From the human T2T-CHM13v2.0 reference genome, Homo sapiens: DNA of 64,000 nucleotides. Below, piece after piece: positions 20,365-26,002 of this stretch. The notes under the pieces are model-generated. The model worked only from the letters and a program-made list of their open reading frames with translations, had not been told where the DNA came from and made no database searches. The position numbers were made by a program, and so were the translations under genes. The stretch lies in assembly GCF_009914755.1 (NCBI RefSeq), contig NC_060927.1. The stretch is one strand, 5' to 3'. Each line of letters starts with the position of its first letter. Positions within the stretch are counted from its first letter, which is position 1.

Positions 20365-22972
20365 TTTTTTTTAAATTTTATTATTATTGTACTTTAAGTT
20401 TTAGGGTACATGTGCACAACGTGCAGGTTTGTTACATATGTATACACGTGCCATGATGGTGTGCTGCACCCATTAACTCGTCATTTAGCGTTAGGTATAT
20501 CTCCGAATGCTATCCCTCCCCCCTCCCCCCACCCCACAACAGTCCCCGGTGTGTGATGTTCCCCTTCCTGTGTCCATGTGTTCTCATTGTTCAATTCCCA
20601 CCTATGAGTGAGAACATGCGGTGTTTGGTTTTTTGTCCTTGCGAAAGTTTGCTGAGAATGATGGTTTCCAGCTTCATCCATATCCCTACAAAGGACATGA
20701 ACTCATCATTTTTTTATGGCTGCATAGTATTCCATGGTGTATATGTGCCACATTTTCTTAACCCAGTCTACCCTTGTTGGACATCTGGGTTGGTTCCAAG
20801 TCTTTGCTATTGTGAATAGTGCCGCAATAAACATACGTGTGCATGTGTCTTTATAGCAGCATGATTTATAATCCTTTGGGTATATACCCAGTAATGGGAT
20901 GGCTGGGTCAAATGGTATTTCTAGTTCTAGATCCCTGAGGAATCACCACACTGACTTCCACAATGGTTGAACTAGTTTACAGTCCCAGCAACAGTTCCTA
21001 TTTCTCCACATCCTCTCCAGCACCTGTTGTTTCCTGACTTTTTAATGATCGCCATTCTAACTGGTGTGAGATGGTATCTCATTGTGGTTTTGATTTGCAT
21101 TTCTCTGATGGCCAGTGATGATGAGCATTTTTTCATGTGTTTTTTGGCTGCATAAATGTCTTCTTTTGAGAAGTGTCTGTTCATATCCTTCGCCCACTTT
21201 TGATGGGGTTGTTTGTTTTTTTCTTGTAAATTTGTTGGAGTTCATTGTAGATTCTGGGTATTAGCCCTTTGTCAGATGAGTAGGTTGCAAAAATTTTCTC
21301 CCATTCTGTAGGTTGCCTGTTCACTCTGATGGTGGTTTCTTCTGCTGTGCAGAAGCTCTTTAGTTTAATTAGATCCCATTTGTCAATTTTGGCTTTTGTT
21401 GCCATAGCTTTTGGTGTTTTAGACATGAAGTCCTTGCCCATGCCTATGTCCTGAATGGTATTGCCTAGGTTTTCTTCTAGGGTTTTTATGGTTTTAGGTC
21501 TAACATGTAAGTCTTTAATCCATCTTGAATTAATTATAAGGTGTATATTATAAGGTGTAATTATAAGGTGTATAATTATATATTAATTATAAGGTGTATA
21601 TTAATTATAAGGTGTAAGGAAGGGATCCAGTTTCAGCTTTCTACATATGGCTAGCCAGTTTTCCCTGCACCATTTATTAAATAGGGAATCCTTTCCCCAT
21701 TGCTTGTTTTTGTCAGGTTTGTCAAAGATCAGATAGTTGTAGATATGCGGCATTATTTCTGAGGGCTCTGTTCTGTTCCATTGGTCTATATCTCTGTTTT
21801 GGTACCAGTACCATGCTGTTTTGGTTACTGTAGCCTTGTAGTATAGTTTGAAGTCAGGTAGCGTGATGGTTCCAGCTTTGTTCTTTTGGCTTAGGATTGA
21901 CTTGGCAATGTGGGCTCTTTTTTGGTTCCATATGAACTTTAAAGTAGTTTTTTCCAATTCTGTGAAGAAATTCATTGGTAGCTTGATGGGGATGGCATTG
22001 AATCTATAAATTACCCTGGGCAGTATGGCCATTTTCACAATATTGAATCTTCCTACCCATGAGCGTGTACTGTTCTTCCATTTGTTTGTATCCTCTTTTA
22101 TTTCATTGAGCAGTGGTTTGTAGTTCTCCTTGAAGAGGTCCTTCACATCCCTTGTAAGTTGGATTCCTAGGTATTTTATTCTCTTTGAAGCAATTGTGAA
22201 TGGGAGTTCACTCATGATTTGACTCTCTGTTTGTCTGTTATTGATGTATAAGAATGCTTGTGATTTTTGCACATTGATTTTGTATCCTGAGACTTTGCTG
22301 AAGTTGCTTATCAGCTTAAGGAGATTTTGGGCTGAGACAATGGGGTTTTCTAGATATACAATCATGTCATCTGCAAACAGGGACAATTTGACTTCCTCTT
22401 TTCCTAATTGAATACCCGTTATTTCCCTCTCCTGCCTGTTTGCCCTGGCCAGAACTTCCAACACTATGTTGAATAGGAGTGGTGAGAGAGGGCATCCCTG
22501 TCTTGTGCCAGTTTTCAAAGGGAATGCTTCCAGTTTTTGTCCATTCAGTATGATATTGGCTGTGGGTTTGTCATAGATAGCTCTTATTATTTTGAGATAC
22601 GTCCCATCAATACCTAATTTATTGAGAGTTTTTAGCATGAAGAGTTCTTGAATTTTGTCAAAGGCCTTTTCTGCATCTTTTGAGATAATCATGTGGTTTC
22701 TGTCTTTGGTTCTGTTTATATGCTGGAGTACGTTTATTGATTTTCGTATGTTGAACCAGCCTTGCATCCCAGGGATGAAGCCGACTTGATCATGGTGGAT
22801 AAGCTTTTTGATGTGCTGCTGGATTCGGTTTGCCAGTATTTTATTGAGGATTTCTGCATTGATGTTCATCAAGGATATTGGTCTAAAATTCTCTTTTTTT
22901 GTTGTGTCTCTGTCAGGCTTTGGTATCAGGATGATGCTGGCCTCATAAAATGAGTTAGGCAGGATTCCCTCT
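20365..22972 (-). mobile_element. L1PA (PA3/PA4-like) 3' 2.6 kb, left palindrome arm, with open RT ORF 21601-23004
   Basis: T-rich tail at 20365, L1PA 3' UTR, ORF2 RT with QGCPLSP and LFADDMIVY; reverse complement of 23404-25986. Confidence 0.95.
21531..21615 (-). repeat. Five-copy ACACCTTATAA micro-array, left arm copy
   Basis: Exact mirror of 24761-24845. Confidence 0.9.
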
Positions 22973-23013
22973 CTTTTTTTTTTTTTTTTTGAAAAGGTCA
23001 ACAAAATTGATAG

Positions 23014-23101
23014 ACCGCTAGGAAGACTAATAAAGAAGAAAAGACAAAGGGGATATCACTGCTAGCAAGACAAATAAAGAAGAAAAGACAAAGGGGATAT
23101 C
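23014..23101 (+). repeat. 44-bp tandem duplication in the palindrome spacer
   Basis: accgctaggaagactaataaagaagaaaagacaaaggggatatc / actgctagcaagacaaataaagaagaaaagacaaaggggatatc, 3 mismatches. Confidence 0.9.
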
Positions 23102-24760
23102 ACCACTGATCCCACAGAAATACAAACTACCATCAGAGAATACTATAAATACCTCTACACAAATAAACTAGAAAATCTAGAAGAAATGGATAAATTCCTT
23201 GACACATACACCCTCCCAAGACTAAACAAGATAGAAGTTGAATCTCTGAATAGACCAATAACAGGCTCTGAAATTGAGGCAATAATTAATAGTTTAGCAA
23301 CCAAAAAAAGTCCAGGACCAGATGGATTCACAGCAGAATTCTACCAGAGGTACAAGGAGGACCTGGTACCATTCCTTTTGAAACTATTCCAATCAATAGA
23401 AAAAGAGGGAATCTTCCCTAACTCATTTTATGAGGCCAGCATCATCCTGATACCAAAGCCTGACAGAGACACAACAAAAAAAGAGAATTTTAGACCAATA
23501 TCCTTGATGAACATCGATGCAGAAATCCTCAATAAAATACTGGCAAACCGAATCCAGCAGCACATCAAAAAGCTTATCCACCATGATCAAGTCGGCTTCA
23601 TCCCTGGGATGCAAGGCTGGTTCAACATACGAAAATCAATAAACGTACTCCAGCATATAAACAGAACCAAAGACAGAAACCACATGATTATCTCAAAAGA
23701 TGCAGAAAAGGCCTTTGACAAAATTCAAGAACTCTTCATGCTAAAAACTCTCAATAAATTAGGTATTGATGGGATGTATCTCAAAATAATAAGAGCTATC
23801 TATGACAAACCCACAGCCAATATCATACTGAATGGACAAAAACTGGAAGCATTCCCTTTGAAAACTGGCACAAGACAGGGATGCCCTCTCTCACCACTCC
23901 TATTCAACATAGTGTTGGAAGTTCTGGCCAGGGCAATCAGGCAGGAGAGGGAAATAACGGGTATTCAATTAGGAAAAGAGGAAGTCAAATTGTCCCTGTT
24001 TGCAGATGACATGATTGTATATCTAGAAAACCCCATCGTCTCAGCCCAAAATCTCCTTAAGCTGATAAGCAACTTCAGCAAAGTCTCAGGATACAAAATC
24101 AATGTGCAAAAATCACAAGCATTCTTATACACCAATAACAGACAAACAGAGAGTCAAATCATGAGTGAACTCCCATTCACAATTGCTTCAAAGAGAATAA
24201 AATACCTAGGAATCCAACTTACAAGGGATGTGAAGGACCTCTTCAAGGAGAACTACAAACCACTGCTCAATGAAATAAAAGAGGATACAAACAAATGGAA
24301 GAACAGTACACGCTCATGGGTAGGAAGATTCAATATTGTGAAAATGGCCATACTGCCCAAGGTAATTTATAGATTCAATGCCATCCCCATCAAGCTACCA
24401 ATGAATTTCTTCACAGAATTGGAAAAAACTACTTTAAAGTTCATATGGAACCAAAAAAGAGCCCACATTGCCAAGTCAATCCTAAGCCAAAAGAACAAAG
24501 CTGGAACCATCACGCTACCTGACTTCAAACTATACTACAAGGCTACAGTAACCAAAACAGCATGGTACTGGTACCAAAACAGAGATATAGACCAATGGAA
24601 CAGAACAGAGCCCTCAGAAATAATGCCGCATATCTACAACTATCTGATCTTTGACAAACCTGACAAAAACAAGCAATGGGGAAAGGATTCCCTATTTAAT
24701 AAATGGTGCAGGGAAAACTGGCTAGCCATATGTAGAAAGCTGAAACTGGATCCCTTCCTT

Positions 24761-24845
24761 ACACCTTATAATTAATATACACCTTATAATTAATATATAA
24801 TTATACACCTTATAATTACACCTTATAATATACACCTTATAATTA
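24761..24845 (+). repeat. Five-copy ACACCTTATAA micro-array that terminates ORF2, right arm copy
   Basis: Motif starts at 24761, 24779, 24805, 24818 and 24832 with AT-palindromic linkers. Confidence 0.9.
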
Positions 24846-26002
24846 ATTCAAGATGGATTAAAGACTTACATGTTAGACCTAAAACCATAAAAACCCTAGA
24901 AGAAAACCTAGGCAATACCATTCAGGACATAGGCATGGGCAAGGACTTCATGTCTAAAACACCAAAAGCTATGGCAACAAAAGCCAAAATTGACAAATGG
25001 GATCTAATTAAACTAAAGAGCTTCTGCACAGCAGAAGAAACCACCATCAGAGTGAACAGGCAACCTACAGAATGGGAGAAAATTTTTGCAACCTACTCAT
25101 CTGACAAAGGGCTAATACCCAGAATCTACAATGAACTCCAACAAATTTACAAGAAAAAAACAAACAACCCCATCAAAAGTGGGCGAAGGATATGAACAGA
25201 CACTTCTCAAAAGAAGACATTTATGCAGCCAAAAAACACATGAAAAAATGCTCATCATCACTGGCCATCAGAGAAATGCAAATCAAAACCACAATGAGAT
25301 ACCATCTCACACCAGTTAGAATGGCGATCATTAAAAAGTCAGGAAACAACAGGTGCTGGAGAGGATGTGGAGAAATAGGAACTGTTGCTGGGACTGTAAA
25401 CTAGTTCAACCATTGTGGAAGTCAGTGTGGTGATTCCTCAGGGATCTAGAACTAGAAATACCATTTGACCCAGCCATCCCATTACTGGGTATATACCCAA
25501 AGGATTATAAATCATGCTGCTATAAAGACACATGCACACGTATGTTTATTGCGGCACTATTCACAATAGCAAAGACTTGGAACCAACCCAGATGTCCAAC
25601 AAGGGTAGACTGGGTTAAGAAAATGTGGCACATATACACCATGGAATACTATGCAGCCATAAAAAAATGATGAGTTCATGTCCTTTGTAGGGATATGGAT
25701 GAAGCTGGAAACCATCATTCTCAGCAAACTTTCGCAAGGACAAAAAACCAAACACCGCATGTTCTCACTCATAGGTGGGAATTGAACAATGAGAACACAT
25801 GGACACAGGAAGGGGAACATCACACACCGGGGACTGTTGTGGGGTGGGGGGAGGGGGGAGGGATAGCATTCGGAGATATACCTAACGCTAAATGACGAGT
25901 TAATGGGTGCAGCACACCATCATGGCACGTGTATACATATGTAACAAACCTGCACGTTGTGCACATGTACCCTAATACTGAAAGTATAATTAAAAAAAAA
26001 AA

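What the first reader, a model, noticed from the sequence alone, without database searches (positions are those of the whole stretch)
20390..25986. Candidate long L1 dsRNA hairpin inside a germline gene's pre-mRNA
Seen: the palindrome starts ~1.1 kb downstream of the ZCWPW2 zf-CW exon, so any transcript crossing this intron contains both arms and could fold into a ~2.6 kb almost perfect duplex covering L1 RT and 3' UTR. Established: such duplexes are substrates for ADAR, Dicer, PKR and MDA5; inverted-repeat loci produce endo-siRNAs in mouse oocytes; ZCWPW2 is a testis-biased paralog of the meiotic reader ZCWPW1. Inference: the locus could be a germline source of anti-L1 small RNAs or a hyper-edited, nuclear-retained intron. 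This is the best candidate in the window for an undescribed system, but it is speculative.
Basis: inference. Interest (0 to 1): 0.75.

Follow-up and report, generated by a model that had tools for sequence, protein, structure and literature searches.

The report
Intronic L1 palindrome, already catalogued
A real, nearly perfect 2.6-kb inverted duplication of one old L1 element sits in an intron of the meiotic gene ZCWPW2 and would fold into a very long RNA duplex if transcribed, but the locus is already listed in a published catalogue of such structures and nothing shows that it does anything.

Summary
Arms 20376-22981 and 23395-26000 (2606 nt, 413-nt spacer; 15 mismatches in 2601 by blastn) lie 1.06 kb downstream of the zf-CW exon. 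As RNA they fold into one hairpin: -5036 kcal/mol, and a longest perfect helix of 1615 bp.

It is not two L1 insertions. It is one 5'-truncated antisense L1, flanked by a target-site duplication inside an older L1. About 3 kb of it was copied in inverted orientation. Both breakpoints fall in the same ORF2 T-run, and the junctions are A/T-run microhomologies. The arms differ at 6 of 2559 interior sites, all in the inner 944 nt. About 70 differences would be expected had they diverged since insertion. So the duplication is late, or the arms are homogenised by gene conversion.

The "undescribed system" reading fails. This locus is a row in Table S8 of Barak et al. 2020 (197 long, tight inverted duplicates in human RefSeq transcripts). 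Its coverage there was essentially zero in a GTEx pool that included testis and ovary.

The mouse-oocyte siRNA analogy transfers poorly, because the truncated oocyte Dicer is confined to rodents.

Most likely this is an inert intronic by-product that ADAR could edit. Small-RNA production remains untested. Interest is low to moderate.

The parts
18972..19316 (+). ZCWPW2 exon encoding the zf-CW domain (context; hairpin starts 1060 nt downstream)
   Evidence: Hub annotation; PF07496 E 7.9e-17 on the translation of 18985-19314
20280..20364 (-). Left half of an older antisense L1 3' end, the original target. The last ~10-19 nt (20345-20364) are the left target-site duplication copy.
   Evidence: In 9 of 9 other copies of that older L1, the left flank ends at about reference position 1511 and the right flank starts at about 1493. 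The flanks are therefore contiguous with a ~19-nt overlap.
20365..20372 (-). T8 run, the complement of the A-tail of the resident L1 (left arm)
   Evidence: Sequence and run scan
20376..22981 (-). Left arm: resident L1 on the minus strand, from mid-ORF2 (RT) to the 3' UTR end
   Evidence: RVT_1 E 1.3e-42 on 21604-23055 minus
21530..21615 (-). Private ACACCTTATAA-type mini-array inside ORF2, left-arm copy
   Evidence: Identical in both arms. A 29-mer from it occurs only twice in the genome.
22974..22990 (.). Junction 1: a T17 run joining the inner end of the left arm (ORF2, about 403 nt downstream of the T-run site) to the start of the spacer (the ORF2 T-run site)
22991..23394 (+). Spacer (loop): single-copy L1 ORF2 segment in sense orientation, directly continuous with the right arm. 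It carries a ~31-nt deletion and a ~44-nt tandem duplication within ~110 nt of junction 1.
   Evidence: Aligns to other L1 copies from 3 nt after the end of piece A'. Private differences cluster at 22990-23090.
23395..26000 (+). Right arm: inverted copy, L1 sense on the plus strand (same strand as ZCWPW2), RT to 3' UTR
   Evidence: (ORF 23078-24772 = ORF2p residues 394-956 of 8uw3_A)
24761..24846 (+). Private ACACCTTATAA-type mini-array, right-arm copy
25992..26003 (+). Junction 2: the A12 tail of the right arm, abutting piece A'
26004..26310 (-). Piece A': the 5' end of the resident antisense L1 (ORF2p residues 262-364). It ends in the same T-run at which the spacer begins.
   Evidence: 8sxt_A residues 262-364, E 3.6e-55; in 9 of 9 other L1 copies, A' and the spacer are 3-4 nt apart.
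26304..26440 (-). Right target-site duplication copy (26304-26323, overlapping the A' end) and the continuation of the older target L1

Best explanation
What it is. One 5'-truncated L1 (about 3.35 kb, antisense to ZCWPW2) inserted into an older L1 and made a target-site duplication. Later, its 3' 3.0 kb was copied in inverted orientation in a single local rearrangement with two strand or template switches. Both switches fall in the same ORF2 T-run, and both use A/T-run microhomology. If the original element reads c-b-a on the plus strand, the result reads c + inverted(c-b) + a. That is two 2.6-kb arms around a 413-nt loop. The arms have since been kept, or made, nearly identical. Arm-to-arm gene conversion probably contributed, because the outer 1615 bp are identical.

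How it works (inferred). When RNA polymerase II transcribes this ZCWPW2 intron, the U-rich left arm and the A-rich right arm pair into a roughly 2.6-kb nuclear duplex. The expected fate is promiscuous A-to-I editing by ADAR, then removal with the spliced intron. It has no dedicated function and no route to the cytoplasm unless the intron is retained. It is a tolerated structural by-product and is already listed as such in a published catalogue.

Shown here: the structure, its origin from one element, the fold and the catalogue entry. Inferred: the order and mechanism of the rearrangement, and every statement about the fate of the RNA.
For: Structure:
- Arms and spacer.
- Left arm antisense and right arm sense, each with its own A-tail.
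- Piece A' covers ORF2p residues 262-364 and the right-hand ORF covers 394-956.
- In 9 of 9 other genomic L1 copies, A' ends 3-4 nt before the spacer begins.
- The flanks are contiguous in 9 of 9 copies of the older L1, with a ~19-nt overlap.

The arms are copies of each other:
- 35 shared private substitutions in 2559 interior columns, against 19 relatives.
- The private array and the private 16-mer each occur exactly twice genome-wide.

Late duplication or homogenisation:
- 6 arm-arm differences against about 70 expected.
- All 6 lie in the inner 944 nt (P = 0.0025).
- None lie in the outer 1615 nt, against 10.3 expected (P = 3.5e-5).

Fold: -5035.6 kcal/mol, with 2580 of 2606 bases paired across the arms.

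Already catalogued, and effectively unexpressed in polyA+ data including testis and ovary: Barak et al. 2020, Table S8 and sample list. I checked the coordinate offset with a second ZCWPW2 inverted repeat.

The class is known and mostly intergenic and unedited: dsRNAscan preprint, section 10.
Against: - No RNA data were examined here, so folding in vivo, editing and decay are all inferred.
- GTEx polyA+ libraries sample introns poorly. The zero coverage therefore does not exclude transcription in zygotene germ cells, which are a small fraction of testis.
- The one covered arm in Table S8 has an editing index of 8.33%. That hints at editing but rests on very few bases. By my arithmetic 8.33% is 1 in 12, so about a dozen covered adenosines.
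- Human cells can make Dicer/ADAR1-dependent small RNAs from inverted Alus (PMC7668262, abstract). Small-RNA output is therefore not impossible.
- Order of events: the ancestral, unduplicated state was not seen in any genome. The arm tails differ more than the interior does (4 substitutions and 2 indels in 25 nt). A simple late copy explains that only by invoking error-prone synthesis near the junction.
- The closest L1 relatives may have been missed, because only 40 of 5415 and 40 of 6909 candidates were scored.
Confidence: 0.75

Rival explanations
1. The hairpin is a germline small-RNA source. ZCWPW2 pre-mRNA made in meiotic cells is diced, or fed into the piRNA pathway, and yields anti-L1 small RNAs, like hpRNA loci of flies and mouse oocytes.
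For: - The duplex is long and near perfect and covers L1 ORF2 and the 3' UTR.
- The host gene is highly expressed at zygotene in testis and ovary (PMC12828234, passages).
- Human cell lines make AGO2-loaded small RNAs from inverted Alus (PMC7668262, abstract).
Against: - The truncated oocyte Dicer behind mouse endo-siRNAs is reported only in Muridae and Cricetidae.
- Putative endo-siRNAs are minimal in non-rodent oocytes (PMC13399003, passages).
- The RNA is intronic and nuclear.
- The arms are 3-6% diverged from the other L1 copies scored. They belong to an old subfamily, so they would match young active L1s imperfectly.
- Coverage was essentially zero in a GTEx pool with testis and ovary.
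- No small-RNA data were seen.
Confidence: 0.05
2. The palindrome acts in cis on ZCWPW2. It might slow or terminate elongation, alter splicing of the 21.7-kb intron, or become an MDA5/PKR ligand that depends on ADAR1 editing when the intron is retained.
For: - 3 kb of sense-oriented, A-rich L1 with 6 AATAAA and 4 ATTAAA motifs lies on the gene's strand in the right arm.
- Barak et al. report selection against long tight duplexes even in pre-mRNA and raise intron retention as a reason (passages).
- The gene is essential for meiosis.
Against: - The structure is present in two independent human assemblies, hg19 and this one, so it is tolerated.
- No exon lies between the arms, so it cannot drive back-splicing or exon skipping directly.
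- No expression data tie it to any ZCWPW2 isoform.
- The hub's table shows no exon in or near it for the one selected transcript it lists (1 of 4); the other three were not seen.
Confidence: 0.1
3. Origin rival: the arms are two separate L1 insertions. A second element inserted in the opposite orientation at the T-run of the first, with a 400-bp target deletion, and gene conversion later made them alike. Alternatively, the whole structure arose during the original retrotransposition by reverse-transcriptase template jumps.
For: - Each arm ends in its own A-tail.
- The T-run followed by a purine resembles an L1 endonuclease site (recalled).
- The arm tails differ at 4 substitutions and 2 indels in 25 nt.
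- L1 integration can itself produce inverted duplications and foldbacks (bioRxiv 10.1101/2024.12.14.628481, passages).
- The outer-arm identity shows that conversion is likely active.
Against: - The 5' end of the right-hand L1 coincides to within 3-4 nt with the L1 coordinate of the site it would have inserted into. For an independent insertion this is a coincidence of roughly 1 in 1000 (my estimate).
- The 66-nt private array and all 35 private substitutions are shared.
- No third copy with these markers exists in the genome.
- An origin at insertion needs later conversion to remove about 64 of about 70 expected differences.
Confidence: 0.08
4. Assembly artefact: a fold-back chimera in the long-read assembly.
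For: Palindromes can be created by missed-adapter or fold-back reads (general knowledge, recalled).
Against: - The same arms, spacer and identity are reported for hg19 (2602 nt, 99.62%, 421-nt gap), at a constant coordinate offset that I checked with a second repeat.
- The structure has a unique 413-nt loop, returns to piece A', and has arm-specific substitutions.
Confidence: 0.01

Closest known systems
Long (>300 bp), tight (>96%) inverted duplicated sequences within human RefSeq pre-mRNAs (Barak et al. 2020, Genome Biol 21:26, Table S8)
   Same: It is this very locus: hg19 chr3:28455950-28458552 and 28458974-28461576, 2602 nt, 99.62%. Like most of the 197 entries it is intronic, repeat-derived and almost unexpressed.
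   Different: It is unusually long. Among the ~158 of 197 rows I read (file parts 3-5), only 4 are longer. Among rows at 99% identity or more, only one is (5761 nt). The paper does not discuss it individually and gives no origin for it.
Long, highly paired predicted dsRNAs between inverted LINEs (dsRNAscan preprint, PMC11838218)
   Same: It meets the definition (>300 bp, >96% paired). Most of the 2,018 such predictions form between inverted LINE elements.
   Different: 88% of that class are intergenic, whereas this one is inside a protein-coding gene. I could not check whether it is in their list. The one supplementary file held as text has no ZCWPW2 hit, and the tables are not held.
Hairpin-RNA (hpRNA) and endo-siRNA loci of Drosophila and mouse oocytes
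   Same: An inverted duplication that can be transcribed as one RNA and fold into a long duplex with homology to other genomic copies.
   Different: No small RNAs have been shown. The human germline lacks the truncated Dicer isoform. The duplex is intronic rather than a dedicated transcript.
Twin-priming 5'-inverted L1 insertions (recalled; mentioned in passages)
   Same: An L1 with an internal inversion, flanked by one target-site duplication.
   Different: Twin priming gives two adjacent, non-overlapping segments and one A-tail. Here 2.6 kb is present twice, there are two A-tails, and a third segment (A') keeps the original orientation.
Replicative template-switch inverted duplications (FoSTeS/MMBIR type) and sex-chromosome palindromes with arm-to-arm gene conversion (both recalled)
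   Same: Microhomology at both junctions, extra small rearrangements and substitutions next to the junctions, and arms far more alike than their age predicts.
   Different: It is much smaller than the disease-associated or sex-chromosome cases and lies wholly within one retrotransposon copy. The mechanism is inferred from the end product only.

Membership tests
LINE-1 (L1) retrotransposon copy | ORF2 with a reverse-transcriptase domain | tested here: met
   RVT_1 E 1.1e-43 (right) and 1.3e-42 (left). ORF2p residues 394-956 of 8uw3_A.
LINE-1 (L1) retrotransposon copy | 3' A-tail and target-site duplication around the insertion | tested here: met
   T8 at 20365-20372 and A12 at 25992-26003. The flanks overlap by ~19 nt in the coordinates of the older L1. 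The two duplication copies match at only 14 of 18 positions, and part of the right copy overlaps the A' end.
Long, tight inverted duplicated sequence in a pre-mRNA (Barak et al. 2020) | >300 bp and >96% identity, with both arms in one RefSeq transcript | tested here: met
   2601-2606 nt at 99.4%. Both arms lie between exons 18972-19316 and 41035-41194 (hub table). Listed in Table S8.
hpRNA / endo-siRNA locus | Inverted repeat transcribed as one RNA that folds into a long duplex | tested here: inconclusive
   The fold is predicted. Transcription across both arms is not shown, and published polyA+ coverage is about 0.
hpRNA / endo-siRNA locus | Dicer-dependent 21-23-nt small RNAs from both arms, loaded into Argonaute | not testable with these tools
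   No small-RNA data were available. Background argues against it in the human germline.
ADAR hyper-editing substrate | Clusters of A-to-G mismatches confined to the arms | not testable with these tools
   The only published number is AEI 8.33% on one arm at near-zero coverage, and 0% in muscle.
Twin-priming 5'-inverted L1 | Two abutting, non-duplicated segments (inverted 5' part, direct 3' part) with a single A-tail | tested here: not met
   2.6 kb is duplicated, there are two A-tails, and there are three segments.
Template-switch (microhomology-mediated) inverted duplication | Microhomology at the junctions | tested here: met
   Junction 1 is a T17 run between two L1 sites that each carry a T-run. 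Junction 2 is the A-tail against the complement of the same T-run.
Template-switch (microhomology-mediated) inverted duplication | An ancestral unduplicated allele exists | not testable with these tools
   No other human haplotype or ape genome was available.
Palindrome with arm-to-arm gene conversion | Arm identity far above that expected from age, with tract-like distribution of differences | tested here: met
   6 differences observed against ~70 expected. 0 in the outer 1615 nt against 10.3 expected, P = 3.5e-5. A recent duplication followed by junction-proximal mutation is not excluded.

The most novel reading that the evidence does not exclude
The palindrome is a conversion-maintained autosomal hairpin locus that is co-transcribed with a meiosis-essential gene at zygotene. 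Its 2.6-kb duplex would then be processed into L1-directed small RNAs, or act as a dsRNA brake on ZCWPW2 itself. That would make it the first functional hpRNA-type locus described in the human germline, possibly specific to the human or great-ape lineage.
Probability: 0.04. Interest if true: 0.8.

Novelty: already known. Interest (0 to 1): 0.28.

Why it matters
As it stands, little. The locus is a large, clean example of a catalogued class: long inverted-LINE duplexes in introns. Those duplexes are thought to be tolerated because they stay nuclear and are weakly expressed.

It is a single L1 that was partly copied back on itself, with both breakpoints in one T-run, and its arms appear to be homogenised.

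It could serve as a test case for three questions:
- How do small autosomal palindromes form and persist?
- Does human meiotic tissue edit or dice a near-perfect 1.6-kb helix?
- Can such a structure in an essential fertility gene matter when splicing fails?

The two private markers make locus-specific read assignment feasible.

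Tried and rejected
- Assembly artefact: rejected, because the same structure is in hg19 with the coordinate offset checked.
- Two insertions from a third source copy: rejected. The private 16-mer and the array 29-mer each occur only twice genome-wide, and A' and the spacer are contiguous.
- Classical twin priming: rejected on structure.
- Elevated mutation in the single-copy loop: private differences at 23090-23394 number 7 in ~305 nt, against 1.37% in the arms. 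This is not significant, so I dropped it.
- CpG-decay dating: only 1 of 35 shared private changes classed as CpG decay. The 80% majority rule is unreliable at CpG sites, so I did not use it.
- One relative (L024) was badly extracted (42% 'private'). It was included (20 relatives) and dropped (19 relatives). The counts did not change.
- Paper searches:
  - ZCWPW2 + dsRNA: 1 unrelated paper.
  - ZCWPW2 + RNA editing: 1 unrelated paper.
  - A six-term search with min_terms 2 did not force ZCWPW2 and told me nothing.
  - 'twin priming' + LINE-1 + template switching + palindrom: 1 review, not read.
- The supplement search of the dsRNAscan preprint found no ZCWPW2 entry, but only one 11-kb text file is held.
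- Part 6 of the Barak supplement (identity below ~96.47%) was not read.

Full report
OBSERVATION

The inverted repeat is real. The repeat finder gives arms 20376-22981 and 23395-26000: 2606 nt, 99% complementary, 413 nt apart. blastn of the two halves gives 99.42%, with 15 mismatches in 2601 ungapped columns. No other inverted pair in the window comes close. The other 7 of 8 pairs of 150 nt or more are 154-197 nt at 72-84%.

The coding part of the upstream exon carries a zf-CW domain (PF07496, E 7.9e-17). The exon ends 1060 nt before the left arm. Both arms carry an RVT_1 domain and run to the L1 3' end.

Folded as RNA, 20366-26010 has an MFE of -5035.6 kcal/mol. 2580 of 2606 left-arm bases pair with the right arm, and the longest uninterrupted helix is 1615 bp.

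ANATOMY

AT skew flips at the centre. The left arm is L1 antisense, with T8 at 20365-20372. The right arm is L1 sense, with A12 at 25992-26003.

The 413-nt spacer is not foreign DNA. It is the L1 ORF2 sequence immediately upstream of the right arm, so the right-hand element is a continuous ~3.0-kb sense L1. Its ORF 23078-24772 matches ORF2p residues 394-956 of 8uw3_A.

A third L1 piece lies directly after the right arm's A-tail. This is A' (26004-26310), in antisense orientation, covering ORF2p residues 262-364.

In 9 of 9 other genomic L1 copies, A' ends 3-4 nt before the point where the spacer begins. Both ends fall in the same T-run, read as GGTTTTTTGAAAAG in those copies. The inner end of the left arm maps ~403 nt further downstream in L1 coordinates.

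Outside the complex, 20280-20364 and 26311-26440 are the two halves of an older antisense L1 3' end. In 9 of 9 copies of that older element the two halves are contiguous with a ~19-nt overlap. This is a target-site duplication, although its two copies match at only 14 of 18 positions and the right copy overlaps the A' end.

Call the original antisense element c-b-a on the plus strand. The present structure is then c + inverted(c-b) + a. One resident L1 had its 3' 3 kb copied back in inverted orientation, and segment b now exists only inverted, as the loop.

Junction 1 is a T17 run (22974-22990). Junction 2 is the A12 tail against the complement of the same T-run. Both are A/T-run microhomologies. 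Within ~110 nt of junction 1 the loop carries a ~31-nt deletion and a ~44-nt tandem duplication.

THE ARMS ARE COPIES OF EACH OTHER, AND YOUNGER THAN THE ELEMENT

I compared the arms with 19 other L1 copies. These were the best of the 40 scored in each. They are 96-97% identical in the RT region and 94-96% identical at the 3' end.

- The arms share 35 private substitutions in 2559 interior columns (1.37%). They differ from each other at 6 sites: 4 derived on the left arm and 2 on the right.
- Under the same count the relatives have 1.1-2.8% private differences, so the element is about as old as its family.
- Had the arms diverged for as long as the element has carried those private changes, about 70 differences would be expected. 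This is an upper bound, because some private changes may come from the source element.
- All 6 differences lie in the inner 944 nt (P = 0.0025). The outer 1615 nt have none, against 10.3 expected at the inner rate (P = 3.5e-5).
- The last 25 nt before each A-tail differ by 4 substitutions and 2 indels. The 20 nt next to junction 1 differ by 2-3 substitutions and an indel.
The DNA search found the array at 100% only in the arms, with 40 of 648 candidates scored.

I read this as a rearrangement after insertion, followed by at least one arm-to-arm conversion tract, with error-prone synthesis or poor conversion at the arm edges.

With recalled rates of 0.5-1.2e-9 per site per year, the interior divergence corresponds to roughly 1-2 Myr. 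The inner part alone corresponds to roughly 3-6 Myr. These are minimum ages if conversion is active.

Several alternatives were considered:
- Twin priming does not fit, because 2.6 kb is duplicated, there are two tails and there are three segments.
- An independent second insertion would need its 5' end to coincide with the L1 coordinate of its own target to within 3-4 nt.
- A reverse-transcriptase-mediated origin at the time of insertion remains possible only with later conversion.
- L1-associated inverted duplications and foldbacks have been described experimentally (bioRxiv 10.1101/2024.12.14.628481, passages).

The replication-type template-switch model and the comparison with sex-chromosome palindromes are recalled, not drawn from any call.

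WHAT IS ALREADY KNOWN

Barak et al. 2020 (PMC7006430) list this locus in Additional file 1, Table S8. I read passages, supplement file 1 parts 3-5 and supplement searches. The table covers 197 human inverted duplicates longer than 300 bp and above 96% identity within RefSeq transcripts.

- The row is hg19 chr3:28455950-28458552 and 28458974-28461576, 2602 nt, 99.62%.
- The hg19-to-window offset is 39.57-39.58 kb at this locus. It is 39.61 kb at a second ZCWPW2 inverted repeat from the same table, which I found at the predicted place (L053 2614-2847 and 3064-3297, spacer 216).
- In their pool of 30 GTEx polyA+ samples from 15 tissues (2 testis and 2 ovary among them), arm 1 had no coverage, arm 2 had an editing index of 8.33%, and the minimum-arm FPKM was 0.
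- In the muscle pool both editing indices were 0 and FPKM was 1.6e-4.
- Of the ~158 rows I read, 4 are longer. Among rows at 99% or more, one is.

The dsRNAscan preprint (PMC11838218; passages and all of section 10) counts 2,018 predicted duplexes longer than 300 bp and more than 96% paired. Most are between inverted LINEs, 88% are intergenic and 74% are unedited. Its tables were not available to me.

No paper in the library discusses this palindrome in its main text under the searches ZCWPW2 + dsRNA or ZCWPW2 + RNA editing.

FUNCTION

ZCWPW2 is now described as a dual histone-mark reader needed for meiotic recombination. It is highly expressed at zygotene in testis and ovary (PMC12828234, passages). 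Germline transcription through the intron is therefore plausible.

Everything after that is inference. The duplex should form in the nucleus, be an ADAR substrate, and be removed with the intron.

The siRNA idea leans on mouse oocytes. According to a 2026 review, the truncated Dicer responsible is confined to Muridae and Cricetidae, and putative endo-siRNAs are minimal in non-rodent oocytes (PMC13399003, passages). Against this, Dicer/ADAR1-dependent small RNAs from inverted Alus are reported in human cell lines (PMC7668262, abstract).

The right arm puts 3 kb of sense, A-rich L1 with 6 AATAAA and 4 ATTAAA motifs on the gene's strand. A mild cis effect on elongation or 3'-end choice is therefore conceivable but unshown.

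VERDICT

- The structural inference is supported.
- The claim of an undescribed system is not supported.
- The functional claims are untested and on balance unlikely.

What is new here is the origin and the apparent homogenisation of the palindrome. Interest is 0.28.

Noticed in passing
window 39528-39719 and 41388-41579: A 192-nt inverted pair (83%) brackets the ZCWPW2 exon at 41035-41194, with one arm in each flanking intron. Inverted repeats in this arrangement are known to favour back-splicing (recalled), so a single-exon circular RNA is conceivable.
   Followed up: no
L053 2614-2847 and 3064-3297 (same gene, outside the window): A second short-spacer inverted repeat in a ZCWPW2 intron (97%, 216-nt spacer). 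It is also in Barak et al. Table S8 (357 nt, 97.48%), there with FPKM 0.007 and an editing index of 5.4% on one arm.
   Followed up: partly
window 23020-23110: The loop carries a ~44-nt tandem duplication whose two copies differ at 3 positions, plus a ~31-nt deletion relative to other L1 copies, all within ~110 nt of junction 1. It may date from the rearrangement or be older.
   Followed up: partly
L003 (own genome, contig 4): One other L1 copy matched the array region over 293 of 297 nt at 82%, whereas ordinary copies matched ~235 nt. It may have an independent expansion at the same ORF2 site.
   Followed up: no
L004 and L005 (own genome, contig 12): Two L1 segments with identical scores lie 13 kb apart on opposite strands, which suggests another inverted L1 pair.
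   Followed up: no
window 20376-20400 versus 25976-26000: The last 25 nt of the two arms differ far more than the interior: 4 substitutions and 2 indels, with 3-5 of the derived states on the right arm. No simple copy model explains this without error-prone synthesis at the junction.
   Followed up: partly
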